A stretch of 64,000 nucleotides of DNA, from contig JBAZNK010000004.1 in assembly GCA_041649255.1 (NCBI GenBank), forward strand, positions 28,647 to 92,646. Reading direction: 5' to 3'. Positions 18,424-41,752 of this stretch are shown piece by piece. The notes below the pieces were generated by a model. That model made no database searches, was not told the DNA's origin, and worked only from the letters and a program-made list of their open reading frames with translations. Source of the stretch: a bacterium (GTDB lineage Bacteria; Hydrothermota; UBA3073; JACQXS01; JAQTXJ01). Within the stretch, counting starts at the first letter, position 1. Every line of letters begins with the position of its first letter. The translations under genes and the position numbers were made by a program.

Positions 18424-18484
18424 AATTATTTCTATAAACTATATTTTTTTAATATTATTTTTCTTACATTTACACTAATCACTT

Positions 18485-27050: not shown

Positions 27051-27061
27051 ATAATTCTGCC

Positions 27062-27092: not shown

Positions 27093-27143
27093 ACACAGAA
27101 AATTCCCTCGTTTATTTCTGTGAATTTCTATCTTCCGCATCTC

Positions 27144-27527
27144 TCAATACACCATCCTTTTTACTTCACACTTTTTCTCTCCAAAATTTAAAAGAAGTCC
27201 TACTTTTACGTTTGTAGTCTTAAGGTAATTTGATAGTTGAGATTCATTTTTGGAATTGTACTCTTTGTCTACTTTGAGTTCTACCAATACTTTTTCCTCG
27301 ACATAAATGTCACAAGCAAAATCTCCAACAGGTTCTCCTTTATAATGAACACTTATAGAGAATTCACTTTTGGCTTCTATGCCTCTTAATCTAAGTTCCA
27401 CAAGTAATGCATTTTTATATACCTTTTCTAAAAAGCCATATCCCAAGTTTTTGTAAACCTCAAAAGCAGCCCCAATTATCTTCTCTGTTAACTCTTTGTA
27501 TAAAAATTCCTCTGATTTCTGCGTCAT
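27144..27527 (-). CDS. GxxExxY family protein (PD-(D/E)XK-like; family typically found in rRNA intervening sequences)
   Basis: 127 aa; family signature LTEKIIGAAFEVYKNLGYGFLEKVYKNAL...; flanked by inverted repeats. Confidence 0.8.
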   Translation of the reverse strand: MTQKSEEFLYKELTEKIIGAAFEVYKNLGYGFLEKVYKNALLVELRLRGIEAKSEFSISVHYKGEPVGDFACDIYVEEKVLVELKVDKEYNSKNESQLSNYLKTTNVKVGLLLNFGEKKCEVKRMVY

Positions 27528-27610
27528 TCTTTAACTATAAGTTTTATTGGTTTTTTATTTGTTTAACTTTATTCATTATTATATTCTCTATTAACTTTTT
27601 GTATAAGACA

Positions 27611-27640
27611 TTTCTGTGATTTCTGTGTCATTCTGTGGCT
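27611..27640. repeat. Right arm of the inverted repeat flanking the GxxExxY gene; additional CTGTG units follow up to 27720
   Basis: See left arm; extra TCTGTGACTA, ATCTGTGTGCTA and TTTCTGTTTTTG units plus the hairpin CCTGCCTGACGGCAGGCAGG at 27681-27700. Confidence 0.55.
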
Positions 27641-27758
27641 ATAATTTTTATCTGTGACTATCCTTCTACTCCCTGCCTGACGGCAGGCAGGTGTGCAAAT
27701 CTGTGTGCTAATTTTTCTGTTTTTGTTTTTCTTTTCCATTTTCTCTTTGGTCCACTCC

Positions 27759-28805
27759 CTATAATTTTATACACTTCTCAAGAACTTTTTCCGGCAAAAT
27801 AATTGACATACAATCCTTTTCGCATTTACTTTTATAGCACCCCAAACAATCCAATTCAGGTTCAATAATCTCTCCAAGCCCATATAATTCAAACTCATTT
27901 CTGTTGAAAATATTATTCAGAAGTATTATTTTCTTTTCAAATCCTATCGCTATATGTAAAGCCATAGTGACCTGTGTAACCACAACTTCGCACACATTTA
28001 CGACCCAAAGAAAATCCTTTAAACTGAAAGTCCCCCAGTATTCTGCTCCGCTTTTTGTTTTTATCCTTTTGTTTTTTTCGTCTTCCTGCGGTCCTCCCAA
28101 AAGAAGCGGAATAAAACCGGCGCTTTTTAATTTTTTAGCTAATGTTACCCAGTTTTCTTCGCTCCAGTTACGAGTTTCCCATCTCCCCCCGCATCCCGTA
28201 TTTAATCCTACTATGCGACCTTTTAATTTTGGGAGTTCCGGGGACTTACCTTTAAGTTCAAGAATATATTTTTCGCCTGAGAAATTAAATCCGCAAACTT
28301 CAAATATTTCCTCAACATAATGTTTTTTATTAGCTTTTTCTATATCATCCCATAATCCCGTTAAAAACTTATGTTCGGCATCTTTATCAATAGAACTGCA
28401 TTTGCCGTCTTTAAGAATAAAACCCTTTTTTATATCCGCAGAAATAAGCCTTGCAAGGGAACAAGTTTCCTTGTCTTTATCAAGATTGTAAAGTATGTCA
28501 AACTTATCTCCTAAAAGAGATACGACGTTTGAAAGCTCAAACTTCATAGGATAATCTACGATAGAAGGCAAAAGTTCCGGGAATATGCTTAACCATGTAA
28601 TCTCGCTATCGGGATATATCTCTTTGAGTCTTCTTAAAATTGGAGTTGTTCTTATAACGTCTCCTGCTGCGCCAAATTTTATTATTAGAATTCTTTTTGA
28701 CACCTCTTTATAATATTCACAATTGTCACAATGAACTCCCTTTTCTTTATGGAATTTACAAGGAATATCCCCTTTGTAAAACCTGCAATTAGTTTTAATT
28801 TTCAT
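27759..28805 (-). CDS. GT9 family glycosyltransferase (heptosyltransferase-like) with N-terminal Cys4 zinc-ribbon-like motif
   Basis: 348 aa; GT9 motif (ILIIKFGAAGDVIRTTPILRRL); N-terminal C-x7-C-x9-C-x2-C; overlaps the start of the upstream radical-SAM gene by 11 nt (translational coupling). Confidence 0.6.
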   Translation of the reverse strand: MKIKTNCRFYKGDIPCKFHKEKGVHCDNCEYYKEVSKRILIIKFGAAGDVIRTTPILRRLKEIYPDSEITWLSIFPELLPSIVDYPMKFELSNVVSLLGDKFDILYNLDKDKETCSLARLISADIKKGFILKDGKCSSIDKDAEHKFLTGLWDDIEKANKKHYVEEIFEVCGFNFSGEKYILELKGKSPELPKLKGRIVGLNTGCGGRWETRNWSEENWVTLAKKLKSAGFIPLLLGGPQEDEKNKRIKTKSGAEYWGTFSLKDFLWVVNVCEVVVTQVTMALHIAIGFEKKIILLNNIFNRNEFELYGLGEIIEPELDCLGCYKSKCEKDCMSIILPEKVLEKCIKL

Positions 28806-31800
28806 TGCCCCTTCCTTTTAGAAATGCTTCTCCTATTTGTGGCATAATGGTGCATAAAAGCCAGCAATGGCATTTCCCGCTGTTCATAAAATCCCGAATC
28901 TTAGTTGCTTTGGACGATTCCCATAATTTATCAAAAGGAGTATCTTTAACATTCCCAACTAACATCTGTTTATTCATCGGACAGAAAAAAAGGTCTCCTT
29001 GAGGATTAAACATAGCAAAATGCACTCCTGCCATACACTTCTTAAAAACTCTGGTAGGATGTAATTGATATTCAACTAAATTCGACCAGAAATATAATTG
29101 CGCAAGTAACCCTATATCGCTTGTAATTGATGTCGTTCTTTTTGCATCAATCATTTTTTTAAGTATTATTTCGATAATGCCTTGAACTTCCAATAACTTT
29201 TCCTTGCTCCATTTCGGGTCCGGCGGTAATACAAATTGAGCCGAAAATATACAATTAAGCCTATTTACAAATTCATAAACAGGCAATAGTTCCGTATAAT
29301 TGTCAGGAGTAACTGTAAAATTAATATTGTAATGAATGTCTTCAAACTCTTTCTGCACTTGAGTTATTGTTCGGACTAAATTATTAAATGCATCCTTTCT
29401 GCCCCTGATTTCATTATGCTTTTCAAATAAGCCGTCAAGAGAAGACCCCAGCCAGATAGATTTTGGCTCATACTTCCTTTTTACCTCCATAAGTTTTTTT
29501 ATCGTTAAATTCGCATCCATACTATTTGTCAAAATTCCAATACTCGCTTCCGGCAACTGTTCTGTTAAGCAACCGCATATTTCTACAAAATCTTTTCTCA
29601 AAAAAGGTTCTCCACCGGAAAGGACTATAGATTTAACATTTTTAAGATATTTGGAATCTCCGATAAACTTCTGAATTTCTTCAAGTGTTAATTGTTTTTT
29701 CTCTAACTCCGGGAATTTGCTGTATTTATCCCACAAATCACAAAAAGTGCATTTACAATTACACCTGTAAGTTAATTCCATATGTAGTTCTTCAGGCCCC
29801 TTCCCTAAATTTATTGCATTATCTATTTTTGGAATTCCTTTTTGAATAGTGTGGTTAATGCTCTCTAAAAGATACTTAAATGGATATCCCTTAATATTAT
29901 GCTCTCTGTACAAGTCCTCTATTTCATAATACAGATTTATTAGAGAAGGGTCTATCTCTTGCGCTTTACGCAGATATGCAATTGCTTCATCTATCTTGCC
30001 TTGCATTTTGCATAAGTATCCCATATTAACGTATGCATCAATATAATCCGGTTTAATTGAAATGGATTTTTTGAAACAACTTTCCCCGTCCTGAAGCTTG
30101 CCAACAGAAACCATTGACACCCCTGTAATATCCCAGATTTCATAATCATCCGGCACGCAAGATAACAATTTTACAAATAGTAAACAGGCTTCTTGTAATT
30201 GTTGGTTAGAAGCCCATTTTTTCCCGAGTTCCAAAACCCATTTTTTTAAATCCGGGTCAATGCTTAATGCTTTTTGAAGCAACTCTTTAGGAAAATCTAA
30301 CTTCCCGGTATTAAAATATAATTTACATAGAATAGAATAAACTTTTGTTGACTCAGGATGCGCTGATAAAACACTTTCCAATTTTAAAATCGCATTCTTG
30401 TAATCTCCTGAATTTATAAAGTTTTCTGCTTCATTTATTTCTTTATCAACTCCCCTTACAGACGGAACTTTTTCGTTAGCTTTTGTATCTTTCCCCGTTC
30501 CCCATTCTTTAATTTCCTTTAAACATTCTTCGTATAAATCCTGTAATCCGATTTTTTGATAGCAGAACGCAAGGTTTTGAATAATAGAGATATTGCGGGA
30601 TTCTTTTTCTATGGAGTTAATAAAATATGGAATTGCTTTTTCAGGTTCTCCTGTATTAAAATAATAATTACCTATGAGATTATTTCTGTTCAGTAATCTT
30701 GGAGCAGGGTAAACACTTGGAACTTTCAAATCCCACGCAAGTTGGCAGAACTCTTCAAATCTTCTTAAACGCACTAAATAAGTATTAGAGCCATCTTTTG
30801 ATTCCCAATACTCTCCTCCTTTACTAAAATCAATGTCAAATTCTTCCTGATGGTCATAAGCATAAGTCCCGGGAGCAAAGCTGCAAAATGCAGGGCAGGG
30901 ATTGACAGTCCCAATATAATCTTTATTTCTTCTTAAAAACTTAAGCGTCTCTCTGAAATCTTCTTCTGTTTCCCCAGGCAAACCAAACATAAAATTAACG
31001 GCACAACTAAGGCCGGCTTTACAACCATCTCTTACTATTTTCTCAGGGTTAATATCTTTTGCCAACAATTTTCCTGCCTTTAACATTAAAGGAACTGAAG
31101 CAGTTTCCATTCCGTATCCTAATGCTACACACCCTGATTGTTTTAATTTAAGTAAAAGTTCATAAGTCATATCCTTTCTCATAATTGCCTGACCGCTCCA
31201 CTGGATTTTCAGCCCATCTTTTACTATGAAATCAGCAAGTTTTTCTAACTCCTTAACACTTCCATTGACCAAACTATCCTGAAAATCAAAGAAACTTCCT
31301 TTTGGATGTTTTTTCAATTGATACAACATTTCCTTATACATATTTTCTGCCGTTCTGAATCGAAATCTTTTCCAGAAAGGACGTTCATTGCAATACACAC
31401 ATTTATTACAGCATCCCCTGCTTGAGATAATTGGAATTTTAAATGGTTCTTTATAATCATTGAAATCGTAATCCGAAAAATCCGGCATTGGCAAAGAATT
31501 AACGTCTTTAATTAACTCTCTATCCCCGCAATCAACCACTTCGCCATTTTTACATATAAGCGTCCCTGCACAAAAATCTACTTTCGGATTTTTAACAATT
31601 TCTTCTAAAGTAACTTCTCCTTCCCCCTGGACAATAAAGTCTACGTTTTCATCTTTAATAATTGCTTTTCCTGCTAAGTCCCTGCTTACATGGGGACCAC
31701 CAAATACAATAATTATTTTGCTGTTTTTTTTCTTAATTTGTTTTGCCAGGTAAAGACTAATATATAAAGAAGAAAAATATATTGAAAATCCAACAACTTT

Positions 31801-33768
31801 TGCTCCACTGCCTAATATTATATCTACATAGTCATTTAAATAATTCTTATGATATTCTATAAACTCATCTACCACGGATGGATTATTCCAGAATGCAAGT
31901 GATTTTTCTAACTCCCAGACATCAGTGTATTTACCTCTTCTCAATTTATAGAGTTCTATATTCAAATCTAAGGAAAGAACTTCATACCCCTGATGTCTCA
32001 CATAAGCAGTCAAACTGGCTAATGCCAGAGGCGGAGTGCTTATTCCCCATGCCGGAGCTTGAACAAGCACAACATCTGCATTCGTAATTTTATTTTTAAT
32101 GTTTGCGTCCGATAAAGACGGAAAATGTTTTTTCATAATATTTTTTACCTCTATTTTCTGGTTATTATCTTTAATTTTACCGCTTTTTTCAAGTTTAAGG
32201 TATTTATCTATAATTTTATTTTTTTTGTTAAGTTCCGCATACAAGGCAGAAAGTTTATCAAATATTTCAGTATTAAACGTTTCTTTAACTAAAGACCTTT
32301 CATAATATTTAGTCGCTTCTTGATATTTCTTTTCATAAAGATAATAATCGCCTATGAGTTTATTCTCGTTAGGTAATTGTTTGAAACCCAATACTATACC
32401 TAATGACTCTAAATGATTAGTAAATTTTTGAAATCTATTTAAACGAATTACATAATTATTTTTTCCGTCTTTACTTTTCCAGTAAACAGCATTATCGTTT
32501 ACTTCTATATTAAATTCTTCCGGGTGAGAATATGCATAACAGCCGGTTGTAAACCCACAAAATCCGGCGCTTGGATTAACTGAGCAATGAGGTCGTAGAT
32601 AGTCAGCATTTCTTGTGAAGAAATCCAAATCGGCTTGAAAATCTTCTTCCGTATCTCCCGGGAAACCGAACATCCAATTCAATCCTATACCTAATTGCGC
32701 TTTATAGCAATCTTTGATAAACTTATCAAAATCGGCATTTTTACACAATAGTTTCCCCATTTTAAGTAATTGTCCTTTTGAAGAATGTTCCATTCCAAAA
32801 CAAAGATGAAAACAGCCAGAATTATGAATTTTCTGCAATAATTCAAATGTCATTTCCGGACGAACGGTCGCTTGCCCCATCCATTCAATACCAAGATTGC
32901 TTTCTATCGCAAGGTCACAAAATTTTTCAAGGGCTTTAACATTACCATTTACCAAAGAATCAGTAAATTCAATTTTTTTTATGTTATATTTAGAAACCTG
33001 GTATTTTACTTCTTCAAAAATTTTCTCCCCTGTTCTGCTTCTAAATTTATACCAAAACACTTTTTCATCGCAATAAATACAATTATTAGGACACCCTCTT
33101 GAAGTTGTAGCCGGTAACATTACAGGCTCTTTATATAATTCAAAAGGAAAATCAGAAAAATCGGCATAAGGCAAAGAATTAAGGTCTGCGATTAATGGTC
33201 TGTCTCCACCGTAATAAATTTTTCCATTTCTGGAAAATAACACGCCTTTTATTGGGTCAAATTCTTCTCCTTTTTCAATAGCTTTGACCAATTCATATAA
33301 AGTTTCTTCCCCTTCCCCGTGAACTACGAAATCTACTTCATTTCTTAAAACAAATTCTTCTCCTTTTATGCCTCTTGCCGCATGGGGACCACCAAAAACG
33401 ATAATCCTGCTCGGGTCTTTCTTTTTAATTTCGGACGCCAATACCAAACTCATTTGTTCCGTAGACCATAGTATTGTAAAACCGATTATTTTAGAGCCGG
33501 AATTTAAAATCTCATCTACGTATCTATCTATTAATTTCTTATGTGCCTTTACAAAATTGCTTACCGCTTGAATATCGCCCCAGAATCCTTCGTTTAATGT
33601 CCACGCATTTGCATATTTAGTATCCTTGAATTCATTATACAATTCAATATTAATGTCCCTCTTGTAAACTTCATAACCGTAAGATTTTAAATAAGCAGAT
33701 AAACAAGCTATAGCAAAAGGAGGGCTTTGTCTTCCCCATGCAGGTGTCTGGATTAATGCTATTTTCAT
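28795..33768 (-). CDS. Giant tri-radical-SAM protein: two tandem B12-binding (class B) radical-SAM domains, TPR linkers, and a C-terminal SPASM/twitch-type radical-SAM domain
   Basis: 1657 aa. Domain 1 (KIALIQTPAWG...TSRGCPNNCIYCDE: CxxxCxxC). Domain 2 (VVLVQAPAWGISTPP...SSRGCCNKCVYCNE). TPR region ~aa 1000-1290. Domain 3 (MELTYRCNCKCTFCD plus C-terminal Cys-rich CMAGVHFAMFNPQGDLFFCP...GKCHCWLLC). Confidence 0.8.
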   Translation of the reverse strand: MKIALIQTPAWGRQSPPFAIACLSAYLKSYGYEVYKRDINIELYNEFKDTKYANAWTLNEGFWGDIQAVSNFVKAHKKLIDRYVDEILNSGSKIIGFTILWSTEQMSLVLASEIKKKDPSRIIVFGGPHAARGIKGEEFVLRNEVDFVVHGEGEETLYELVKAIEKGEEFDPIKGVLFSRNGKIYYGGDRPLIADLNSLPYADFSDFPFELYKEPVMLPATTSRGCPNNCIYCDEKVFWYKFRSRTGEKIFEEVKYQVSKYNIKKIEFTDSLVNGNVKALEKFCDLAIESNLGIEWMGQATVRPEMTFELLQKIHNSGCFHLCFGMEHSSKGQLLKMGKLLCKNADFDKFIKDCYKAQLGIGLNWMFGFPGDTEEDFQADLDFFTRNADYLRPHCSVNPSAGFCGFTTGCYAYSHPEEFNIEVNDNAVYWKSKDGKNNYVIRLNRFQKFTNHLESLGIVLGFKQLPNENKLIGDYYLYEKKYQEATKYYERSLVKETFNTEIFDKLSALYAELNKKNKIIDKYLKLEKSGKIKDNNQKIEVKNIMKKHFPSLSDANIKNKITNADVVLVQAPAWGISTPPLALASLTAYVRHQGYEVLSLDLNIELYKLRRGKYTDVWELEKSLAFWNNPSVVDEFIEYHKNYLNDYVDIILGSGAKVVGFSIYFSSLYISLYLAKQIKKKNSKIIIVFGGPHVSRDLAGKAIIKDENVDFIVQGEGEVTLEEIVKNPKVDFCAGTLICKNGEVVDCGDRELIKDVNSLPMPDFSDYDFNDYKEPFKIPIISSRGCCNKCVYCNERPFWKRFRFRTAENMYKEMLYQLKKHPKGSFFDFQDSLVNGSVKELEKLADFIVKDGLKIQWSGQAIMRKDMTYELLLKLKQSGCVALGYGMETASVPLMLKAGKLLAKDINPEKIVRDGCKAGLSCAVNFMFGLPGETEEDFRETLKFLRRNKDYIGTVNPCPAFCSFAPGTYAYDHQEEFDIDFSKGGEYWESKDGSNTYLVRLRRFEEFCQLAWDLKVPSVYPAPRLLNRNNLIGNYYFNTGEPEKAIPYFINSIEKESRNISIIQNLAFCYQKIGLQDLYEECLKEIKEWGTGKDTKANEKVPSVRGVDKEINEAENFINSGDYKNAILKLESVLSAHPESTKVYSILCKLYFNTGKLDFPKELLQKALSIDPDLKKWVLELGKKWASNQQLQEACLLFVKLLSCVPDDYEIWDITGVSMVSVGKLQDGESCFKKSISIKPDYIDAYVNMGYLCKMQGKIDEAIAYLRKAQEIDPSLINLYYEIEDLYREHNIKGYPFKYLLESINHTIQKGIPKIDNAINLGKGPEELHMELTYRCNCKCTFCDLWDKYSKFPELEKKQLTLEEIQKFIGDSKYLKNVKSIVLSGGEPFLRKDFVEICGCLTEQLPEASIGILTNSMDANLTIKKLMEVKRKYEPKSIWLGSSLDGLFEKHNEIRGRKDAFNNLVRTITQVQKEFEDIHYNINFTVTPDNYTELLPVYEFVNRLNCIFSAQFVLPPDPKWSKEKLLEVQGIIEIILKKMIDAKRTTSITSDIGLLAQLYFWSNLVEYQLHPTRVFKKCMAGVHFAMFNPQGDLFFCPMNKQMLVGNVKDTPFDKLWESSKATKIRDFMNSGKCHCWLLCTIMPQIGEAFLKGRGNEN

Positions 33769-34916
33769 ATTTTTTTTGCAACAACAACCATTTCAGGTCC
33801 TATGTTAATGTCAAGGTTATCTAAATATTCTATAACTTGCAAAGCAATTTTTTTGTCCTCTAGGAATAATCGTTCTTGAATAAGATTAATACAAGTCTTA
33901 AGGGGACCTCCAGTGCTTCTGGTATACAATTTCAGGATTTCAAAACCTGCTTTCTCCAGATATTTACGCATAGTATCCGGAGTAAAGTAATATAAATGAT
34001 TAGGCCATGCCTTCCATTCCCATATTTTCCCCTGCGCCTTTGCCATAAAAGAATCAAAGTTAAGCGTGGTAAGCCACAACAGCCCATCGGATTTAATCGT
34101 TCTTTGCATTTCTTTTAATATCAATAATGGGTCTTTAAGATGTTCAATCACACATTGTATAGCAATTACGTCAAATTCATTAGCAGGAAACCTTGCGTCA
34201 ACAAAGTTATCTCCAATAGTTATATCTAATCCAAGTTTTTCAATGGCATAATTTGCAGTTTCAGGACAGGTTTCAAAACCTTTTACTTTCCAACCTTCTT
34301 CCTGGGCGGCTTTTAAAAACTCACCATTTGCACAACCTATATCTAAAATTTTTCCTTTATGAGTTATATATTTTTCAATTTCTCTTAATTCTCCCTTTCT
34401 GGCCAAAATTCTTGTTAAAATATTATTAGATATATTTTCCATAGTCTCATCATTGAAAACACTGTAATAGCTATTCAATTCATCGTCAGATGGTAGAGGG
34501 TTATAAGCCACAAGCCCGCAAGTTTTACATCTCACTAGATTAGAAGGATTTTCTTGATATACTATTTCATAATTATTTCCCCCACAAAGATTGCAATCAC
34601 TATATTCAATTTTTGCTAAATGAGACTCTTCCGTACACTCAATGTCCGGAGTTTGGCTCATTTTATTAAGCCAGTTTTCAAAATCTTTGTCAACTTTTGT
34701 TGCTCTCATTATCCATTCCGGTGGAACATCTGCCTTACCTACTTTAATACAAAGCTTACATAACATAGGGTACAACTCGTCCGTTTCAGGATATATTTCT
34801 ATTAAACTTTCTAATCTAAGTATCGCTTCTGTAGAGTTCCCATTTTTCTCTAATTGGCGGATATGGTCTATTTTATCAGAGAGTGCCATAGCAAGCCTCC
34901 TTATAGTTTGTAACAC
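33765..34916 (-). CDS. TPR-like N-terminal module + Cys4 zinc ribbon + class I SAM-dependent methyltransferase
   Basis: 383 aa; CNLCGG...CKTCG zinc ribbon; MTase motif I (ILDIGCANGEF); post-II/III motifs (VIAIQCVIEHLKDP...IKSDGLLWLTT). Confidence 0.7.
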   Translation of the reverse strand: MLQTIRRLAMALSDKIDHIRQLEKNGNSTEAILRLESLIEIYPETDELYPMLCKLCIKVGKADVPPEWIMRATKVDKDFENWLNKMSQTPDIECTEESHLAKIEYSDCNLCGGNNYEIVYQENPSNLVRCKTCGLVAYNPLPSDDELNSYYSVFNDETMENISNNILTRILARKGELREIEKYITHKGKILDIGCANGEFLKAAQEEGWKVKGFETCPETANYAIEKLGLDITIGDNFVDARFPANEFDVIAIQCVIEHLKDPLLILKEMQRTIKSDGLLWLTTLNFDSFMAKAQGKIWEWKAWPNHLYYFTPDTMRKYLEKAGFEILKLYTRSTGGPLKTCINLIQERLFLEDKKIALQVIEYLDNLDINIGPEMVVVAKKI

Positions 34917-34928
34917 ATTTCTTTTTCA

Positions 34929-35969
34929 TTATTTATTTCTAATTTCTTGCTCCAACAATGTTATTTGTTTTTCATATAATTCTTTTAATTTTTTGATATA
35001 TGTTTGAAATTTTGCCGAAGTATCCAACTCGTTCTGTATTATCTTTCTTCCGCTTTCTCGCCATTTTTCAATTTCGCAAGCAACTTCAGAATTTACAAGG
35101 ACTGGAGAACCATTAGCAATATGATTTCGCAACATTTTTACTTCATCAATTAAAAGTTGATTTAGGTCAAACGGGACTTTTTCTTTCTTATCCGCTTTTT
35201 CTTTCTTATCCGCTTTGACTTTATTTTCTACCTCAACTTGATTTTTATACAGAATCAAAATATATTTTTCTTCTTCCCTTGCAAACTTACACATAAACCC
35301 CAAAATTTCAGCCATTACATCAAAAGTCTTTTTTGAATAGAATGAAACATGTCCGGATTTTACCACAATATAATCCCAATCTTTGCCAACTTTTTTAAAA
35401 TCCCCATACTCTTGAGTTGCAGTATTTATTAAAAGTGTCCCCCGTGGTTTCACTATCCGTAATAATTCTCTAAATTCTTTCATAGGATTGGTCAAATGCT
35501 CAGCTACTTCAACACTCAATACCGCATCAAAATAATTATCAGGGAAATGCTTCTCTACCAAAGAACTCTTGAACAGGTAATTATTTTCTTGTAGACAGGA
35601 TGAGATATCAACCCCAACCATATCCAAACCGGCTTTTCTTCCAATTTTTACTGTCTCTCCTAATCCACATCCAAAATCTAAAACTTTGTGCACAGGAGCG
35701 ATAGATTCTAACAATAGGTCTTTCAATCTAAGAACACAGTCCCTCGTGGTTCTCTCAAACCACGGTTCCCCATTCCAATATGCCTGACTGTAGAACTTAC
35801 TTAAAGCTTCAACATCAAGATTATCTATGTAATCAGTAAACAGAAACTCACAATTTGGACACTGATAAAATCTTGCTCCTTCTTTCTCAAAGACAAAGGA
35901 TGCTGTTTTTTTGCATATTTTACAGGTTTTCTCCATAGATTCAGTTCTCTTTGACATAACTTTTTTCAA
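34929..35969 (-). CDS. Zinc-ribbon + class I SAM-dependent methyltransferase with C-terminal coiled-coil tail module
   Basis: 346 aa; CKICKK...CPNCEF; VLDFGCGLGE motif I; KADKKEKADKKEK repeat; last ~45 aa homologous to the tail of 37237..39333. Confidence 0.7.
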   Translation of the reverse strand: MKKVMSKRTESMEKTCKICKKTASFVFEKEGARFYQCPNCEFLFTDYIDNLDVEALSKFYSQAYWNGEPWFERTTRDCVLRLKDLLLESIAPVHKVLDFGCGLGETVKIGRKAGLDMVGVDISSCLQENNYLFKSSLVEKHFPDNYFDAVLSVEVAEHLTNPMKEFRELLRIVKPRGTLLINTATQEYGDFKKVGKDWDYIVVKSGHVSFYSKKTFDVMAEILGFMCKFAREEEKYILILYKNQVEVENKVKADKKEKADKKEKVPFDLNQLLIDEVKMLRNHIANGSPVLVNSEVACEIEKWRESGRKIIQNELDTSAKFQTYIKKLKELYEKQITLLEQEIRNK

Positions 35970-36013
35970 GCCAATAATTCTAGTAAAATTTTATCTATTG
36001 ATAATTATTACCA

Positions 36014-37240
36014 TTACTTACTGCATATAATAAAATGTTGTTTGGAAATCTTATGTTCTTTGATTTCGCTTTTTTTATAATCTACAGAAAAACCAAATTT
36101 TTTAAGTTTTTCCAATAAATCCATTCCATAATCTCTATAAACTAATGTGTGCCCGCCATGATATACAGGCGGTAAAAGATAAACGTCTTTTTCTCCTTCC
36201 GGTTTGACTCTTATAGTTGTGATTTTTGCGGGACTTTCTATCGGTATCGGTAGCGAAAGGAAAAATTTACCAGACCGTTTAAGCACTCTAAATATCTCTC
36301 TATATCCCTTATTGTCCAATCTAACATGTTCAAAAACATCTGCCGCGATAACAATATCAAAAGAATTTGAAGCAAACGGTAGATTCTGAACATTCACATA
36401 TTTACAGGAATCTATATTCTCATCAACTTTTTCAGGTATATACTCCGTATCTAAATAATCAAACTTTTGCTCTAAAATTTTACAACGGGGTCTTCCACCG
36501 CTTATTTCAAGGATTTTAAGTTTTTTATTTGACTCCCAGAATATCATCGGTTTATTTCCTTTGTCCAAACATTGAGCAAGTTGATATACAAGCATCCTAT
36601 CCCTACTATGAGAACTACAATTTAAACAATTTAATCCCTGTCGCCGATATTCCAGCAGCTTAGCTTTATTGTTATACTCACAACATACAGTATTGATAAG
36701 CTCTTTTAGTACAAGGTCAGAATCTAAGAACCCTTTTGGACTACCGCAAACATTACAATAAGGCGTTTTATTCGTTTTATAATTTGTTTTAAGACAATCT
36801 ATGGCTTTTTCTATCTTATTGGTATGAACATAAAGTCCGTATAAAATAATATACAATTCTTTTTGTTCAGGATAGTTAACGCAAAGGGATTTTAATCTTG
36901 TTATAGCTTCTTCTATATTGTTTTTTTCTATCAGTTGTTGAACTATAATTATTCTTTTTGAAAGTCCCATATTTCCACATTCATTATAGCCAAAATTTTT
37001 CAATACATCTTCTAATCCCGTCTCGACTTCAATCGCTTTTTTTACCCATTCTGTTGGAATATCAAACTTTTTAACGTTAATGTAAAGTTTACATATCATT
37101 GGATAGAGTTCTTTAATATCCGGGTACAATTTTAGAAGGGTTTCTAAGTTAAATACTGCCTCTTCTGATTTTCCGGTTGTAATTAATTGACGGATTTTAG
37201 TTATTTCCTCAGAAAATGTCATTGAAATATTCCTTTTCAT
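36014..37240 (-). CDS. TPR-like N-terminal module + zinc ribbon + class I SAM-dependent methyltransferase
   Basis: 408 aa; N-terminal module homologous to those of 33765..34916 and 18485..20368; MTase motifs (IVIAADVFEHV...LKRSGKFFLSLP). Confidence 0.7.
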   Translation of the reverse strand: MKRNISMTFSEEITKIRQLITTGKSEEAVFNLETLLKLYPDIKELYPMICKLYINVKKFDIPTEWVKKAIEVETGLEDVLKNFGYNECGNMGLSKRIIIVQQLIEKNNIEEAITRLKSLCVNYPEQKELYIILYGLYVHTNKIEKAIDCLKTNYKTNKTPYCNVCGSPKGFLDSDLVLKELINTVCCEYNNKAKLLEYRRQGLNCLNCSSHSRDRMLVYQLAQCLDKGNKPMIFWESNKKLKILEISGGRPRCKILEQKFDYLDTEYIPEKVDENIDSCKYVNVQNLPFASNSFDIVIAADVFEHVRLDNKGYREIFRVLKRSGKFFLSLPIPIESPAKITTIRVKPEGEKDVYLLPPVYHGGHTLVYRDYGMDLLEKLKKFGFSVDYKKSEIKEHKISKQHFIICSK

Positions 37241-39333
37241 TTCTTATTCTTAATTTCTTCCTCTAACAATCTTATTTGTTTTTCGTATAATTCCTTCAAT
37301 CTTTTGATATATGATTGAAATTTCGCCGTAGTATCAAATTCGTTCTGTATAGTTTCCCTTCCCTTTATTTTTAGTTCTTCAATAAGCTTGTCTTTTTCCT
37401 TAATAATACTTTCTTTCGCTTGAATAATGTTTTCTTTTTCCTGAATAATTCTATCTTTCCCTTGGAAAGATTCATTTCTAAGTTTTTTTTCATTATTATT
37501 TTTTTCTTCTAAATACTTTATTGGAAAACCATATATTAAATGATTCATTGGAACATTTTGTTTTTCAACTTTCCCGCATACAGCGATAATATAAATAAAT
37601 TTTTCAAATACTTGAAAATTCTCAGATGAATCCTTCCAGGTAGGTTGTGTATGGATCGGAAGAACCTTAAAATCTGTTGTTTGTTCTCTCTTGTTTTTTT
37701 CTAAAAACTGTTTTTCTATAATCATACCTTCAAAGTAGTCCTGCCCCCAAAAAGTTATTTCGGAAAAATATTTTTTTAGAAAAACATCAAATTCGTCAAT
37801 ATAATACTCATGAATATGAAAAGGATTTTTCCAGTCTTCAACGGCATCCGTATAAATTTTCTTATTAGGAGTAGAAATTATTAATATCCCATCCGTTTTT
37901 AATACTCTTTTTATTTCTGATAAATACATTTCAGGGTTTTGTAGATGCTCTACTACTTCAAAAGACACCACAACATCAAATACTTTGTCCGGGAAAGATA
38001 ATTTTTCAGCATTCATTACCTTAAATTCCAGGTTTTTATTTTCATAATTAGATTTGCAATACTCTATTGTTTCTTTGGAAATATCAATTCCTGTAACTTT
38101 TTTCGCACCACTTTTCAAGAGATGATAAGAACCATATCCACACCCACAACCTGCATCAAAAACTATTTTATCTTTTACATATTGACTGGCAAACATATAC
38201 CGCGTAATATGTTCAAGAAATAAACTTTCTCTCTCTGGGTTATCCGGAACCAATCTTTCTCCTGTAGATTCCATTTTTAACTTATTTTGCACTCCTTTTT
38301 GTTTAATTTTATAAGTTGCCTGACCTGCATCATTACCCTTTTCACAATTTTGTAGTGCTTGCTCGTTTTTGGTTTTTTGTAAGTTATTTACCAATTCATC
38401 ATATTCTTCCATCAACCCGGGTATCTGGCAGCTATAAGAACTCACACCGTAAGATATGCAGGATGAACATATAGGATTAGATATCCGCTTTTTTGCTATC
38501 TCGTCTGTATTCATATCAAGATAATTTCCAACTATGCCTTCCGGCTCAAAAGTTCCACAACACTGAAGAACCTCGCCTTTGTAAGTAAACGCAATTTGAT
38601 TGTAAAGTAAAGGACAAGGCATCCTGTATTTTTTCGCAATCTCCATAGCGGGCAACACAGGTAATAAATATTCAGAGGTTATGAATTCATCTTTATTTTT
38701 CCCCATAAAGTTATCAGCAAGAGCTATAAGCTCCTCAAATACCATATGTTTTGCATAATAGGTCGCAAAGCCAAAGCCCAAATCTTTCGCATATTTCTCC
38801 ATCAATTTCATCTCCATGAGATTAGTTTTATATTTATGATAATAGATATATACATTAGTAGTTGCCCCTGTTTGTTCTTTTGCTAAGGATAAAAGGTGCA
38901 TATTCATTTTCACTTTTTCAATATTTCCTCCCGCGTGAAAACGATTGTAAGTATTTTGGTACCACCCCGAAAGACTTATACAGAAGTTTTTGGGATTATA
39001 TTGCATAATTTCGTAAAAATCAACCGTCTTATTTAAGTTGCTGCTAATATTAACCTCAAATTGTAAAGATTTTGCAAAACTAATCAACTCAACAAGATTT
39101 GGATGCAAGAGTGGCTCACCCCAATTATATATGTCAATATCCTTAACTTGCGGGTAGTCATTTCTAAGTTTGGAAACTATCTTTCTGAATAAATTTAGAC
39201 TCATAAATGGTAACGTTTTATCATTTATTATTTTCCCTTTTCCTCTTGGGCAGGAAGGACAACGTAAGTTACAGTTTCCAACTATATCCATATGAACGGT
39301 TTTGATGTTCATAGGAGTAAAAGGTTCTTGCAT
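37237..39333 (-). CDS. Radical-SAM (CxxxCxxC, possible SPASM-like Cys cluster) fused to class I SAM-dependent methyltransferase and C-terminal coiled-coil tail
   Basis: 698 aa; VGNCNLRCPSCPRG radical-SAM motif; later Cys cluster PCPLLYNQ...QCCGTF; MTase motif I VFDAGCGCGYGS, VVSFEVVEHLQNP, DGILIISTPN; tail ...FQSYIKRLKELYEKQIRLLEEEIKNKK. Confidence 0.75.
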   Translation of the reverse strand: MQEPFTPMNIKTVHMDIVGNCNLRCPSCPRGKGKIINDKTLPFMSLNLFRKIVSKLRNDYPQVKDIDIYNWGEPLLHPNLVELISFAKSLQFEVNISSNLNKTVDFYEIMQYNPKNFCISLSGWYQNTYNRFHAGGNIEKVKMNMHLLSLAKEQTGATTNVYIYYHKYKTNLMEMKLMEKYAKDLGFGFATYYAKHMVFEELIALADNFMGKNKDEFITSEYLLPVLPAMEIAKKYRMPCPLLYNQIAFTYKGEVLQCCGTFEPEGIVGNYLDMNTDEIAKKRISNPICSSCISYGVSSYSCQIPGLMEEYDELVNNLQKTKNEQALQNCEKGNDAGQATYKIKQKGVQNKLKMESTGERLVPDNPERESLFLEHITRYMFASQYVKDKIVFDAGCGCGYGSYHLLKSGAKKVTGIDISKETIEYCKSNYENKNLEFKVMNAEKLSFPDKVFDVVVSFEVVEHLQNPEMYLSEIKRVLKTDGILIISTPNKKIYTDAVEDWKNPFHIHEYYIDEFDVFLKKYFSEITFWGQDYFEGMIIEKQFLEKNKREQTTDFKVLPIHTQPTWKDSSENFQVFEKFIYIIAVCGKVEKQNVPMNHLIYGFPIKYLEEKNNNEKKLRNESFQGKDRIIQEKENIIQAKESIIKEKDKLIEELKIKGRETIQNEFDTTAKFQSYIKRLKELYEKQIRLLEEEIKNKK

Positions 39334-39474
39334 TTTAAGTTGCCTCCCGCAACAGTCTCAACTACTAAAAAAGCAGGAAAATTAGGAATTTCCACTCTTT
39401 TTTATTTTCTAATTTTGACATAAAATTTTATTTATCTATATCTTTTTTATTATCGTCAAATTTTCCTTAAAACT

Positions 39475-40683
39475 TTAACTTACATATGCTTCTTTATTCC
39501 ACTCCCGCATAGTTTCTATTATACTGCTTGCGCGATGGACATAAGTATGTTCCTGTAAAACTCTTTGTCTTGCTTTTTTTGCAATCTTTTTTCTTTCGGT
39601 TGAATGCTGAAGATAAAAGTTAACCAGTTCTTTTAATTCTTCCTTATCCTTGAAAGTTATTACCTCTTCTTTTGGAATAAACAAATCAATCAAAGTCTTA
39701 CGTTCATCCGTAATAAGAAACCCGCCCGCAGCAGGAACATCAAATACCCTTTGATTACATCCCTCCGGCATTTGAAAACTTGTAATATTTAAATTTATTT
39801 CACTCCCGTTATAAACCAAAGGCAATTGAGTGTAATAGTTTACGGCAGGCAACAATGTTACGTTCTTGAAAAGTTTATGCCAACCCGTATCTCCATATAT
39901 TCTTAATCCACAAGATAAAATATTCTCCAAGACTTCTTGTCTTTTGTTAAACGTAGCTTTTAATGCAATATAAGACTCAAGTTCAGTTAATTTTCCATTA
40001 TCAATCGGCAATTTTAATTCCAGAGTTTCAGATATTTTTTTCAATGCTTTGCCTGAGAAAATTCCACTTTTATTATGTAATAATTTTAAGGTTTCATCAG
40101 ATAGTTTTTCCCATTCATTAATATTAGAGACTTTCTTTTTCCACTTATCAACTGATTCTATCATAGAATCTCCAACAAAGCTTATATCCGTTACATATTT
40201 ACCGGGTATATTTTCCATTAGTTTAAATATTTCCGGGTCAGTTCCAAGAGGTAAATACTTAACTTTTTTAAATCCTGATTCTTGAAGTTCAGAAACATAC
40301 AAAGGGTCCCACACAAATACGTTGGCATAAGGAGAAACGTTTTCTTTGTCATAACCTTCAAGAATATATCTAGGGGAATCTACATACCATATTGCATACG
40401 GAATCTTTAACTCGGTTAACAATCCCGTAATTTTCCCTTCACAGTCAAACCCCTCGTGGTTTACGGTGAATATGAAATCCGGTTGAAATTCACATAACGT
40501 AACCAGAAGTTCTTTTAGGAAGGTATCTTTCTTGTTAACAGTTATTTTACGAACTTCGCAGCCAAGTCTTTCAAATGCAGTAGCGCATTCTTTGACAATA
40601 TAATAATCCCATTCAAATATAACTATCCTTGTCTTATTTCTTTTGAATTTTGCATAAGATGTTGCGGATTTAATCTTTTGCAT
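39475..40683 (-). CDS. CgeB-like (DUF3880/Glyco_trans_1_2) glycosyltransferase-like protein
   Basis: 402 aa; C-terminal motif KIAKKARQRVLQEHTYVHR typical of CgeB-family proteins. Confidence 0.5.
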   Translation of the reverse strand: MQKIKSATSYAKFKRNKTRIVIFEWDYYIVKECATAFERLGCEVRKITVNKKDTFLKELLVTLCEFQPDFIFTVNHEGFDCEGKITGLLTELKIPYAIWYVDSPRYILEGYDKENVSPYANVFVWDPLYVSELQESGFKKVKYLPLGTDPEIFKLMENIPGKYVTDISFVGDSMIESVDKWKKKVSNINEWEKLSDETLKLLHNKSGIFSGKALKKISETLELKLPIDNGKLTELESYIALKATFNKRQEVLENILSCGLRIYGDTGWHKLFKNVTLLPAVNYYTQLPLVYNGSEINLNITSFQMPEGCNQRVFDVPAAGGFLITDERKTLIDLFIPKEEVITFKDKEELKELVNFYLQHSTERKKIAKKARQRVLQEHTYVHRASSIIETMREWNKEAYVS

Positions 40684-40693
40684 CGCTCATATT

Positions 40694-41752
40694 TCAGACT
40701 TTGCAGGAAATTCCGACTTTACTTATTACTGCTCTCAGTTTTTGAAATTCCTTTTTAGGATTGAAATGTGTTTTTATATAAATCTTACCATCTTCTACTA
40801 ATTCTCTCCTTAGGTTCTCATCATTCAAAACTCTTTTTATCTCTTTTACCCATTTATCCGGATTTAAGAAATCATCTATTAATATGGCGCCCGGTCCAGC
40901 AGCTTCAGGGATTCCACCTATTCTTCCTGCAACTACAGGTATTCCATTAAGCAAAGCTTCTACAATTATCATACCAAAAGTTTCTCCTATTACTGAAGGG
41001 ACAACTAATAATTTAGTAGTAGAATAAAAATATTTCGGAGGAGTATATCCCATATATCTTACATTTGGAAGTTTAAGTTTTATTCCATGTCCTACAGTTA
41101 AAAACTGTTCTTCCGGCATTAATCTGGCAATTTCACAAAAAGTTAAAATACCTTTACGGACTTCAGGCTGATACATAGTAATATACTTCTGAGGTACAAA
41201 TATCTCCTCGCATATGATTTCATCATAGTTGATAAACGGATAAATCACTTCCGAATCCATATTTGTAAACTCTTTTAACACCTGTCTTGTATATTCGGAA
41301 TTTGATATAATAGCATCTGCCTGTTGAAGCATCTCACGATTTCTTACAAGCGTAGTTTCATACAAATTGTAATAATTACAGTTTTTACAATTTCTGTCAC
41401 ATATTTCTGCATATAAGGGCACATGACAGAAATAATCCATACCATGAACAAAAAGAACTACCGGAATGTTTAACCTTTTGGCGATACTGACTGCAAAGGG
41501 AGCAAGATCAAACTGCGTAAATATGACATCCGGCAATAAAGTTTCTATACTTTTTGTAAGACTTAGCAATTCGCTAAAAGTATTTACTGTTACACCATTT
41601 TTTTCCACTTTTCTGCTTCTATTCTTTTCAATACAAAAAGCATAGGTATCAAATCCTTCCTCGCTTAAATGCTCAAGCAATGTTAAACTACTTTTTTCTG
41701 CACCTCTTAAAGGAGGATACAAATCGTGTGCTATGAATAATATTTTTTTCAT
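40694..41752 (-). CDS. GT4 family glycosyltransferase (GT-B)
   Basis: 352 aa; GETFGMIIVEALLNGIPVVAGRIGGIPE nucleotide-sugar binding motif. Confidence 0.75.
   Translation of the reverse strand: MKKILFIAHDLYPPLRGAEKSSLTLLEHLSEEGFDTYAFCIEKNRSRKVEKNGVTVNTFSELLSLTKSIETLLPDVIFTQFDLAPFAVSIAKRLNIPVVLFVHGMDYFCHVPLYAEICDRNCKNCNYYNLYETTLVRNREMLQQADAIISNSEYTRQVLKEFTNMDSEVIYPFINYDEIICEEIFVPQKYITMYQPEVRKGILTFCEIARLMPEEQFLTVGHGIKLKLPNVRYMGYTPPKYFYSTTKLLVVPSVIGETFGMIIVEALLNGIPVVAGRIGGIPEAAGPGAILIDDFLNPDKWVKEIKRVLNDENLRRELVEDGKIYIKTHFNPKKEFQKLRAVISKVGISCKV

What the first reader, a model, noticed from the sequence alone, without database searches (positions are those of the whole stretch)
37237..39333. Radical-SAM + class I methyltransferase fusion protein
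An N-terminal radical-SAM core (VGNCNLRCPSCPRG, with a further Cys cluster suggesting an auxiliary Fe-S site) is fused in one chain to a canonical SAM-dependent methyltransferase (VFDAGCGCGYGS). It is an uncommon pairing of two different SAM-using chemistries on one polypeptide.
Basis: partly seen in the sequence, partly recalled or inferred. Interest (0 to 1): 0.65.

Follow-up and report, generated by a model that had tools for sequence, protein, structure and literature searches.

The report
Radical-SAM/methyltransferase fusion in flagellar sugar island
This is a real single gene, from an uncultured bacterium, that joins an iron-sulfur 'radical SAM' enzyme to an ordinary methyltransferase with a coiled-coil tail; it sits in a 30-kb sugar-decoration gene island next to the flagellin gene and most likely tailors that sugar coat, a rare but not revolutionary arrangement.

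Summary
Window 37237-39333 (minus strand) is one 698-aa ORF made of four parts:
- a radical-SAM module (aa 1-333) with the CX3CX2C motif and four further invariant Cys, which indicates a twitch-type auxiliary [4Fe-4S] site;
- a 20-aa linker;
- a class I SAM methyltransferase (aa 354-~600);
- a helical coiled-coil tail (aa ~605-698).

It is not a sequencing artefact. A separate Logan assembly is identical. A second genome (MAG STC_131, 92% nt identity) has the same 698-aa ORF, with dN/dS of 0.07-0.11 in both modules and only an in-frame 3-nt indel in the linker.

The fusion is lineage-specific. A third relative has the same MT (~90% nt identity) as a stand-alone gene starting at the residue equivalent to M354, and homology breaks 1 nt before that ATG. 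None of 68 rSAM family members from reference genomes carries an MT domain, and no other full-length match appeared among 5.8 billion protein clusters. Two other rSAM+MT fusions with different architectures do exist.

The gene lies in a ~30-kb island of GT, MT, rSAM and TPR genes between fliC-fliS-fliD and the fliF...fliR operon. Best reading: a bifunctional glycan-tailoring enzyme, combining a radical step with an O-methyl cap in a terminator-like MT + coiled-coil format. The chemistry is unproven. Interest is moderate.

The parts
37237..39333 (-). Complete 698-aa ORF (stop codon included): rSAM - linker - class I MT - coiled-coil tail
   Evidence: identical in Logan contig L001; orthologous 698-aa ORF in L008; NCBI MFA5032178.1
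38335..39333 (-). Radical-SAM module, aa 1-333 (partial TIM barrel + twitch-like C-terminal extension + helix 307-331)
39250..39273 (-). CX3CX2C radical-SAM cluster motif (C21, C25, C28)
   Evidence: sequence; invariant in 49/49 homologues
38458..38616 (-). Auxiliary-cluster (twitch-like) region, aa 240-292: C240-x12-G-x4-C258 ... C289-x2-C292
   Evidence: four Cys invariant in 49/49 and >=97% of 68; weak alignment to the BtrN auxiliary-cluster region
38275..38334 (-). 20-aa linker (aa 334-353, NDAGQATYKIKQKGVQNKLK); no counterpart in relative L007
   Evidence: homology to L007 begins at 38275; L008 has a 3-nt in-frame deletion here
38292..38298 (-). Shine-Dalgarno-like AAAGGAG inside the linker, 17 nt upstream of the internal ATG (M354)
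   Evidence: conserved in L008. Spacing is longer than the 4-9 nt usual in this window, so function is doubtful
38272..38274 (-). Internal ATG (M354) = start codon of the stand-alone orthologous MT in relative L007 and of many stand-alone homologues
37534..38274 (-). Class I SAM-dependent methyltransferase module, aa 354-600 (motif I VFDAGCGCGYGS at 38128-38163; family signature TGERxxP / EHxxRY / SFExIEH / STPN / NPFHxxE)
37240..37521 (-). C-terminal helical/coiled-coil tail, aa 605-698; the last ~47 aa are shared with the 346-aa MT (34932-35072) and with a 909-aa GT in relative L007
   Evidence: AF2 helices 252-312 and 316-344 of the module; tblastn 70% identity; blastn; L007 sequence
36014..37240 (-). 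Downstream 408-aa TPR-like + MT protein whose ATG overlaps the fusion's TGA (ATGA), i.e. same operon
11906..41752 (-). ~30-kb co-oriented glycosylation island: TPR-GT2 x3, GT1/GT4, CgeB-like GTs, a 1375-aa GT1+GT2x2, five MT-containing proteins, a 1657-aa B12/rSAM x3 protein, and this fusion
   Evidence: Pfam
8279..11620 (-). fliC (flagellin, 290 aa, 10748-11620), fliS (10267-10599) and fliD (8279-10186), immediately downstream of the island on the same strand
   Evidence: Pfam

Best explanation
The gene encodes a genuine bifunctional glycan-tailoring enzyme of a flagellum-associated glycosylation island.

Shown:
- It is one ORF conserved in two genomes.
- The N-terminal module is a radical-SAM enzyme of the SPASM/twitch clade, with one fully Cys4-ligated auxiliary-cluster site.
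- The C-terminal module is an intact class I methyltransferase followed by a long helical tail.
- The gene lies, co-oriented and translationally coupled, among about 17 GT/MT/rSAM/TPR genes directly upstream of fliC-fliS-fliD.
- The fusion arose in this lineage by joining an rSAM cassette to the start codon of a pre-existing MT gene.

Inferred:
- The MT + coiled-coil half works like the chain-terminating methyltransferases of WsaE, WbdD and Klebsiella O7 ORF6, putting an O-methyl cap on a terminal sugar.
- The rSAM half abstracts a hydrogen from a sugar of the same glycan to oxidise, epimerise, deoxygenate or decarboxylate it, as BtrN, DesII and BlsE do. The Cys4 auxiliary cluster would serve as electron acceptor.
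- Fusion keeps the two tailoring steps together at the same end of the growing glycan, which is probably assembled in the cytoplasm on flagellin.
For: Reality of the fusion:
- The ORF and its domains are confirmed.
- A separate Logan assembly is identical.
- The orthologue in MAG STC_131 is also 698 aa, with 90.4% aa identity and dS 0.37. dN/dS is 0.071 in the rSAM module and 0.113 in the MT module. The only linker length change is a 3-nt indel.

Catalytic competence:
- Seven Cys are invariant in 49/49 homologues, together with W71-G-E-P, S97/N99, Y129, H133, H166 and Y168.
- The MT family invariants are all present in the query.

Fold:
- The twitch definition, the Cys4 ligation in BtrN and the proposed electron-acceptor role come from PMC9012708.

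Glycan context of the window:
- Pfam searches show the island.
- No transporter, priming GT or nucleotide-sugar genes occur anywhere in the window.

Glycan context of relatives:
- Flanking genes of 68 homologues include 21 GT41, 10 class I MTs, 4 sugar C-MTs, 5 RmlC and 5 GT2.
- L002, L006, L087 and L088 are all polysaccharide or amino-sugar clusters.

rSAM-MT linkage:
- P0180 carries the same rSAM family plus Methyltransf_11, GT1 and GT2.
- L077 has an rSAM gene followed 23 nt later by an MT.
- L002 has the order rSAM-MT-rSAM.

Terminator analogy:
- The MT half is 35-50% identical to the N-terminal MT modules of MT+GT2+GT1 proteins of about 1100 aa, the WsaE architecture.
- WsaE's MT domain makes the 2-O-methyl cap (PMC2943079).
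- The tail is modelled as long helices.

Origin:
- Homology to relative L007 starts 1 nt before the ATG of M354.
- L007 has the MT unfused.
Against: - No biochemical data exist for any member of this rSAM family.
- The MT matches only generic class I MTs in the PDB. WbdD is not among the top 60 by sequence or fold.
- No Wzm/Wzt transporter is present, which is a defining companion of WbdD/WsaE-type termination.
- Flagellin as the target is inferred from position only. None of the 78 other family loci has flagellar genes within 6 kb.
- Many family members carry TPR domains or sit next to TPR-GT41, which could mean a protein substrate rather than a sugar substrate.
- Selection for the fusion itself is only weakly supported. 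Keeping a 20-codon linker open and in frame over this divergence could happen by chance roughly one time in five (my estimate).
- The MT could also be made separately from its retained ATG.
Confidence: 0.6

Rival explanations
1. The fusion is an artefact: two adjacent genes (rSAM and MT) joined by a sequencing or assembly error at the junction.
For: The MT retains its own ATG (M354), preceded by an SD-like AAAGGAG. A close relative has the MT as a separate gene starting at that ATG. The linker is short and AT-rich, with homopolymer runs.
Against: A separate Logan assembly of SRR8542065 has the identical sequence, though possibly built from the same sequencing data as the MAG. A different genome, MAG STC_131 (92% nt identity, a different record), has the same 698-aa ORF. 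Its linker differs by 8 substitutions and one 3-nt indel yet stays in frame. The last 12 linker codons show only synonymous changes. The other two frames across the junction are full of stops.
Confidence: 0.03
2. The fusion is real but functionally neutral. On this reading it is a recent by-product of cassette shuffling in a hypervariable glycosylation island: the two modules act independently on different steps or substrates, and the MT may also be made on its own from the internal ATG.
For: The island is a mosaic among three relatives, with cassettes present, absent or relocated. The homology breakpoint lies exactly at the MT start codon. The fusion is found in only 2 genomes, and 0 of 68 family members are MT-fused. 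The SD-like motif and the ATG are conserved. The linker has a higher dN/dS (0.19) than the modules and carries an indel.
Against: The fusion has been retained over dS 0.37 without a stop or frameshift. Independent fusions of an rSAM with an MT and GTs (P0180, P0019), and repeated rSAM-MT adjacency, argue for a functional link. The SD spacing of 17 nt is outside the 4-9 nt range used in this window.
Confidence: 0.25
3. The enzyme modifies the flagellin (or another) polypeptide rather than its sugars. The rSAM would act as a protein/peptide-modifying maturase, like anSME, sactisynthases or the epimerase EpeE, and the MT would methylate a side chain.
For: The top structural matches include many peptide-modifying SPASM/twitch enzymes: CteB, SuiB, SkfB, ChlB, anSME and EpeE. 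At least 25 of 68 family members carry N-terminal TPR domains, and 21 of 114 neighbours are TPR-GT41 protein glycosyltransferases. TPR domains bind flagellin in FlmG (PMC7591256).
Against: The query itself has no TPR or RiPP-recognition domain. All examined contexts are dominated by sugar-pathway enzymes and GTs: RmlC, sugar C-MTs, DegT, formyltransferase, heptose genes. The MT half belongs to the family fused to GT2/GT1 polymerases.
Confidence: 0.12
4. The two SAM-using domains cooperate in a single radical methyl-transfer-type reaction (C-methylation, methylene transfer or cyclopropanation), like the two-component C10P (rSAM) / C10Q (MT) cyclopropanase.
For: There is precedent for an rSAM and an MT-fold protein acting as one catalyst (PMC6050322). 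Here the two are covalently fused, and rSAM-MT linkage recurs.
Confidence: 0.05

Closest known systems
BtrN (twitch-domain radical-SAM 2-deoxy-scyllo-inosamine dehydrogenase; PDB 4M7T)
   Different: Sequence similarity is marginal (E 0.15). The query module is about 90 aa longer, with family-specific invariant residues Y129/H133/H166/Y168. No reaction is known for the query family.
BlsE (cytosylglucuronate decarboxylase, PDB 7VOB) and DesII (PDB 8HZV): radical-SAM enzymes acting on sugar nucleosides / TDP-sugars
   Different: Identity is only 13-16%. The ranking is flat, with peptide-modifying enzymes scoring almost equally, so no orthology can be claimed.
WsaE (Geobacillus stearothermophilus S-layer glycan methyl-rhamnosyltransferase) and the WsaE-like MT+GT2+GT1 proteins
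   Same: The query's MT half is 35-50% identical to the N-terminal MT modules of ~1000-1130-aa MT+GT2+GT1 proteins with this architecture. WsaE's MT domain methylates the terminal rhamnose to cap the chain (PMC2943079).
   Different: The query has no GT domains. The MT is preceded by an rSAM instead of being N-terminal. WsaE itself was not available for direct comparison. The WsaE pathway uses Wzm/Wzt export, which is absent here.
WbdD (E. coli O9a) and Klebsiella O7 ORF6: chain terminators with a coiled-coil molecular ruler
   Different: The query has no kinase domain and no membrane-anchoring helix was identified. WbdD is not among the top 60 PDB hits by sequence or fold. There is no ABC transporter in the locus. 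The coiled coil here is short (~90 aa).
FlmG-type TPR-tethered flagellin glycosyltransferases
   Same: The island next to fliC contains three TPR-GT2 proteins and other TPR-fused enzymes. In FlmG the TPR domain binds flagellin (PMC7591256). rSAM relatives are often TPR-fused or adjacent to TPR-GT41.
   Different: The query has no TPR. No pseudaminic/legionaminic acid genes or Maf were seen in the window.
P0180 and P0019 (uncharacterised metagenomic proteins): other rSAM+MT fusions
   Same: P0180 carries the same rSAM family at its N-terminus, followed by a Methyltransf_11 domain, a coiled-coil-like segment, GT1 and GT2. P0019 carries a query-type MT plus an rSAM/SPASM. Both lie in glycan contexts.
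   Different: They differ in MT subfamily (P0180) or rSAM subfamily and domain order (P0019). These are independent fusion events, not orthologues.

Membership tests
Radical SAM superfamily (PF04055) | CX3CX2C motif ligating the SAM-binding [4Fe-4S] cluster | tested here: met
   C21/C25/C28 are present and invariant in 49/49 homologues. Pfam score 31.9 bits against a gathering threshold of 29.5.
Radical SAM superfamily (PF04055) | Partial (beta/alpha)6 TIM-barrel fold | tested here: met
Radical SAM superfamily (PF04055) | Reductive cleavage of SAM to the 5'-deoxyadenosyl radical | not testable with these tools
   Needs anaerobic biochemistry.
Twitch-domain rSAM subgroup (one auxiliary cluster) | C-terminal extension with CX9-15GX4C and further Cys that ligate one auxiliary Fe-S cluster | tested here: met
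   C240-x12-G-x4-C258 plus C289-x2-C292, all invariant. The best structural matches are SPASM/twitch enzymes. The definition is from PMC9012708. Actual cluster binding is not testable here.
Full SPASM subgroup (two auxiliary clusters) | Seven or eight conserved Cys (CX2CX5CX3C block) and a match to PF13186 | tested here: not met
   Only four conserved Cys lie beyond the core. C259 and C302 are variable. There is no PF13186 hit in the query, and only 1 of 68 relatives has one.
Radical-SAM methylases (class A RlmN/Cfr, class B cobalamin, class C HemN-like) | B12-binding domain (class B), HemN-like fold (class C) or RlmN-type architecture (class A) | tested here: not met
Class I SAM-dependent methyltransferases | Rossmann-like fold with motif I (D/E)xGxGxG and an acidic residue after beta2 | tested here: met
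Coiled-coil glycan chain terminators (WbdD / WbbB / Kp O7 ORF6 type) | Terminating catalytic module joined to an extended coiled coil | tested here: met
   The MT is followed by modelled helices at aa 605-665 and 669-697. Format as described in PMC11231755.
Coiled-coil glycan chain terminators (WbdD / WbbB / Kp O7 ORF6 type) | Operates in an ABC-transporter (Wzm/Wzt)-dependent, lipid-linked pathway | tested here: not met
   No ABC transporter or priming transferase was found among the ORFs scanned across the 64-kb window (>=120 aa up to 56 kb).
Coiled-coil glycan chain terminators (WbdD / WbbB / Kp O7 ORF6 type) | Specific sequence or fold relationship to WbdD's MT domain | tested here: inconclusive
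Coiled-coil glycan chain terminators (WbdD / WbbB / Kp O7 ORF6 type) | Methylation of the non-reducing terminal sugar stops polymerisation | not testable with these tools
   Needs glycan structure determination and enzymology.
Flagellin glycosylation island | Cluster of glycan genes embedded in the flagellar regulon next to flagellin | tested here: met
   The island at 11906-41752 lies directly upstream of, and co-oriented with, fliC-fliS-fliD. Sigma-54 activators and flgBC-fliFGHI...fliPR lie on the other side.
Flagellin glycosylation island | Flagellin is actually glycosylated by the island's products | not testable with these tools
   Needs mass spectrometry of flagellin. No Maf or Pse/Leg pathway genes were seen.

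The most novel reading that the evidence does not exclude
This rSAM module may represent a large, entirely uncharacterised family of twitch-type radical-SAM enzymes. On this reading the family carries out a new kind of radical modification on protein-linked glycans. In this lineage the fusion to a coiled-coil capping methyltransferase would create a two-step 'radical + methyl' terminal cap on the flagellar glycan, a modification chemistry not yet described for any flagellin or surface glycan.
Probability: 0.2. Interest if true: 0.7.

Novelty: new variant of a known kind. Interest (0 to 1): 0.42.

Why it matters
The fusion works as a 'Rosetta stone'. It ties an uncharacterised but widespread twitch-type radical-SAM family to glycan capping and methylation chemistry. 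That family had at least 568 relatives in reference genomes, no solved or characterised close relative, and is annotated only generically; the two fused proteins themselves are annotated only as 'methyltransferase domain-containing'.

No paper linking radical-SAM enzymes to flagellin glycosylation was found in the searchable library. If the rSAM step is real, it would add anaerobic radical chemistry to the known repertoire of flagellar and surface-glycan modifications.

Three closely related genomes differ by presence or absence of the rSAM cassette. They offer a natural experiment: compare their glycans. More generally, the locus illustrates how glycosylation islands diversify by swapping enzyme cassettes at gene boundaries, possibly using shared coiled-coil-tail sequences.

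Tried and rejected
1. Sequencing or assembly error at the junction. Rejected: the Logan contig is identical and a diverged orthologue has an in-frame linker.
2. Looking for the same architecture elsewhere.
   - The search for homologous proteins returned only the protein's own cluster.
   - The exhaustive phmmer scan gave no spanning hit in the top 150.
   - The census of 68 family ORFs found 0 with an MT.
   - Only differently built fusions turned up (P0180, P0019).
3. Assigning the rSAM chemistry.
   - PDB sequence search gave only E 0.003 to GDGT-MAS and 0.15 to BtrN.
   - NCBIfam gave only sub-threshold hits, with the tungsten-cofactor maturase at 66 bits against a 380-bit cutoff.
   - No specific assignment is possible.
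5. Testing a general flagellar association of the rSAM family. phmmer with this window's flagellin, FliD, FliF, FliG and FliI against all ORFs of 78 loci gave 0 hits. The flagellar setting is specific to this lineage.
6. Internal translation start at M354. The SD-like AAAGGAG is conserved, but its 17-nt spacing is atypical, against 4-9 nt in the window's genes. Left open.
7. L077 as an unfused 'same pair'. Its MT shares only the generic SAM-binding core with the query, so it is not an orthologous pair.
8. Regulatory RNAs and tRNAs in the window: none found.
9. Organism identity. NCBI names only 'bacterium', and a literature search for the sampling site returned nothing. A TonB_C domain suggests a diderm.
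10. Literature on rSAM in flagellin glycosylation: nothing relevant.


Full report
**Observation.** The window has a single ORF at 37237..39333 on the minus strand: 698 aa with an ATG start.
VGNCNLRCPSCPRG lies at aa 18-31, with C21/C25/C28 forming CX3CX2C. VFDAGCGCGYGS lies at aa 391-402.
- Pfam finds Radical_SAM at aa 18-149 (31.9 bits; gathering threshold 29.5). A series of class I methyltransferase models match at about aa 380-505, with Methyltransf_11 at 93.1 bits.
- NCBIfam gives only sub-threshold hits for both halves.

Three lines of evidence reject it.
- A separate Logan assembly of run SRR8542065 carries an 8,097-nt stretch identical to the window, including the whole ORF.
- The species-representative genome scan recovered L008 (MAG isolate STC_131, contig JAQTXJ010000020.1). 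Its DNA is only 92% identical to the window, yet it has an ORF of the same 698 aa.
- A gapped codon comparison of the two orthologues gives:

| Region | dN/dS |
|---|---|
| rSAM module (aa 1-333) | 0.071 |
| Linker (aa 334-353) | 0.19 |
| MT module (aa 354-600) | 0.113 |
| Tail (aa 601-698) | 0.17 |

- Overall amino-acid identity is 90.4% and dS is 0.37.
- The linker differs by eight substituted codons and one 3-nt in-frame deletion. Its last 12 codons show only synonymous changes.
- The other two reading frames across the junction are full of stops.
- NCBI lists both proteins (MFA5032178.1, MDD2889868.1) merely as 'methyltransferase domain-containing protein'.

**How the fusion arose.** The exhaustive HMMER search returned P0121, a 313-aa protein 91% identical to aa 386-698.
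- Its contig (L007; GCA_028716385.1, 400 kb) carries a syntenic island. There the MT is a stand-alone gene, preceded by a 326-aa MT and a 909-aa Capsule_synth+GT4 protein instead of an rSAM.
- Reading the DNA shows the true start of that MT is an ATG encoding MESTGERLVPD, the residue equivalent to M354 of the query. It follows a stop codon and a 36-nt spacer.
- blastn shows that homology between L007 and the window (89.9% identity) begins at window 38275, one base before the ATG of M354. The linker and the rSAM module have no counterpart there.
- Many stand-alone homologues of the MT also begin at query position 354.
- The fusion therefore joined an rSAM cassette to the intact start of a pre-existing MT gene.
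- An SD-like AAAGGAG survives 17 nt upstream of the internal ATG and is conserved in L008. SD motifs of this window sit 4-9 nt from their start codons, so internal initiation is possible but not well supported.

**How rare is it?**
- Among 5.8 billion 90% clusters, only the protein's own two-member cluster covers both halves. All other hits cover one half.
- In the word-index-free scan of 1.84 billion representatives, none of the best 150 spans both halves in one stretch.
- Of 68 full-length family members taken from reference genomes, 67 match Radical_SAM, at least 25 carry TPR repeats (consistent with the common ~150-aa N-terminal extension), one carries GT2, and none has a methyltransferase domain.
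- The pairing is not unique in kind. P0180 (1309 aa) has the same rSAM family at its N-terminus, followed by a Methyltransf_11 domain, GT1 and GT2. P0019 (918 aa) has a query-type MT, a hexapeptide acyltransferase and a different rSAM/SPASM.

**The radical-SAM module.** An alignment with 48 stand-alone homologues shows two sets of invariant cysteines. C21/C25/C28 form the SAM cluster site. C240, C258, C289 and C292 form a second set.
- Also invariant or nearly so are W71-G-E-P, S97/N99, S120/S122, Y129, H133, H166 and Y168. C259 and C302 vary.
- C240-x12-G-x4-C258 is the SPASM/twitch signature.
- Four conserved cysteines fit one fully ligated auxiliary [4Fe-4S] cluster. [quoted passage not shown] In BtrN that cluster is Cys4-ligated and is proposed to accept the electron in a two-electron oxidation (PMC9012708).
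- The AlphaFold model is confident (pLDDT 91.4, pTM 0.89).
- By sequence, no solved structure is close.
- The fold class is established; the reaction is not.

**The methyltransferase module and tail.** The MT belongs to a well-defined family whose invariant signature is TGERxxP, EHxxRY, DxGCGxGYG, SFExIEH, STPN and NPFHxxE.
- Its closest relatives are stand-alone MTs and, prominently, the N-terminal MT modules of MT+GT2+GT1 proteins of about 1000-1130 aa, some labelled 'O-antigen biosynthesis protein' by their source database.
- This is the architecture of WsaE, whose N-terminal MT domain 2-O-methylates the terminal rhamnose and so caps the S-layer glycan (PMC2943079).
- The model shows a confident Rossmann core. 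A poorly modelled segment follows, then two long helices at aa 605-665 and 669-697.
- The last ~47 residues of the tail recur at 70% identity at the C-terminus of the neighbouring 346-aa MT (window 34932-35072). They also recur at the end of the 909-aa GT of L007.
- This shared tail suggests either a common oligomerisation or docking element, or a recombination site for cassette exchange.

**Genomic setting.** The gene is one of about 17 co-oriented genes at 11906-41752.
- They encode three TPR-GT2 proteins, GT1/GT4 enzymes, CgeB-like GTs, a 1375-aa GT1+GT2x2+TPR protein, a GT9-like protein and five MT-containing proteins.
- They also encode a 1657-aa protein with two B12-binding and three radical-SAM stretches plus SPASM.
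- The fusion's TGA overlaps the ATG of the next gene (ATGA).
- Immediately downstream on the same strand lie flagellin (290 aa), fliS and fliD.
- On the other side lie two sigma-54 activators and flgBC, fliFGHI, fliK, flgDE, motA, fliM and fliPR.
- No transporter, polyprenyl-phosphate priming enzyme or nucleotide-sugar pathway is present in the window. That fits cytoplasmic glycosylation of flagellin, but the target is inferred from position only.

**Wider family context.** Stand-alone rSAM relatives lie in polysaccharide or amino-sugar clusters.
- L002 has rSAM-MT-rSAM next to Wzm/Wzt, GT2 and GT8.
- L006 has TylF-type and other MTs, GT2 and WbsX.
- L087 has DegT, an N-formyltransferase and a CmcI-type MT.
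- L088 has PMT_2, epimerases and heptose genes.
- Among 114 immediately flanking ORFs, 21 are TPR-GT41, 10 are class I MTs, 4 are sugar C-methyltransferases, 5 are RmlC and 5 are GT2.
- None of the 78 loci has flagellar genes within 6 kb.
- The family's general theme is glycan or glycoprotein modification. It is often tethered by TPR domains, and in FlmG the TPR domain binds flagellin (PMC7591256).

**Interpretation.** The best-supported reading (confidence 0.6) is a bifunctional glycan-tailoring enzyme created by a lineage-specific gene fusion.
- A twitch-type rSAM carries out a hydrogen-abstraction-initiated change on a sugar. Oxidation, epimerisation, deoxygenation and decarboxylation are the precedents.
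- A terminator-like MT + coiled coil adds an O-methyl group.
- The existence and intactness of both modules, and the glycan/flagellar context, are shown. The specific reactions, the substrate and the benefit of fusion are inferred.

The rival readings rank as follows:
- The main rival (0.25) is that the fusion is real but selectively neutral, a by-product of cassette shuffling.
- A protein rather than glycan substrate (0.12) is kept alive by the TPR/GT41 associations.
- A cooperative radical methylation of the C10P/C10Q kind (0.05; PMC6050322) is unlikely.
- An artefact (0.03) is effectively excluded.

**Novelty and interest.** The components are known kinds. The architecture is a new variant seen in two genomes, and the rSAM family is uncharacterised.
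- A specialist would find it a useful lead, because the fusion links an orphan rSAM family to glycan capping.
- A natural presence/absence comparison exists among three relatives.
- It is not very surprising, because multidomain fusions are the rule in such islands.
- Interest: 0.42.

Noticed in passing
window 28795-33768 (-): A 1657-aa protein with three Radical_SAM stretches, two B12-binding domains, TPR repeats and a C-terminal SPASM domain on one chain. It is conserved at ~87-89% nt identity in both relatives. A triple radical-SAM polypeptide is unusual and arguably more striking than the finding itself.
   Followed up: partly
P0002 (L087 2791-5247; GCA_030592575.1): The closest homologue of the rSAM module (57-59% identity) is a GT2 + rSAM + TPR protein in which the CX3CX2C motif is lost (IDIVGARNLQDSSCPEE). 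It is probably a catalytically dead rSAM domain retained as a scaffold.
   Followed up: partly
window 27035-41752 versus L007 and L008: The island is a cassette mosaic among three relatives. The 346-aa MT (34929-35969) is absent from L008. L007 has a 326-aa MT and a 909-aa Capsule_synth+GT4 protein in place of the rSAM module. The PDDEXK_3 gene (27144-27527) sits at a different position in L007.
   Followed up: partly
window 37240-37380 and 34932-35072; L007 5693-5870: A ~47-aa C-terminal coiled-coil tail (...AKFQSYIKRLKELYEKQIRLLEEEIKNKK) is shared by different enzymes of the island: the fusion, the 346-aa MT, and the 909-aa GT of the relative. It could be a docking/oligomerisation element or a recombination hotspot.
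   Followed up: partly
L009-L086 (rSAM family loci): About a third of the family members are flanked by a TPR-GT41 (OGT-like) gene, and at least 25 of 68 are themselves TPR-fused. In L004 a TPR-rSAM lies beside a TPR-GT41 and a TPR-sulfotransferase. This suggests a set of TPR-tethered enzymes acting on a common protein target.
   Followed up: partly
window 10748-11620 (-): The flagellin is short (290 aa), with little sequence between its matches to the conserved N- and C-terminal helical regions, despite the very large adjacent glycosylation island.
   Followed up: no
window 42264-43520 (+) and 44143-45231 (+): Two sigma-54 activators stand head-to-head with the island. The first has REC + AAA+ domains but no detected HTH. 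The second has AAA+ and HTH_8 but no receiver domain.
   Followed up: no
window 36014-37240 (-): The 408-aa protein translationally coupled to the fusion has TPR-like repeats, a Cys-rich segment (CNVCGS...CLNCSS) and only the C-terminal half of a class I MT domain by Pfam. It may be a divergent or zinc-ribbon-interrupted MT.
   Followed up: no
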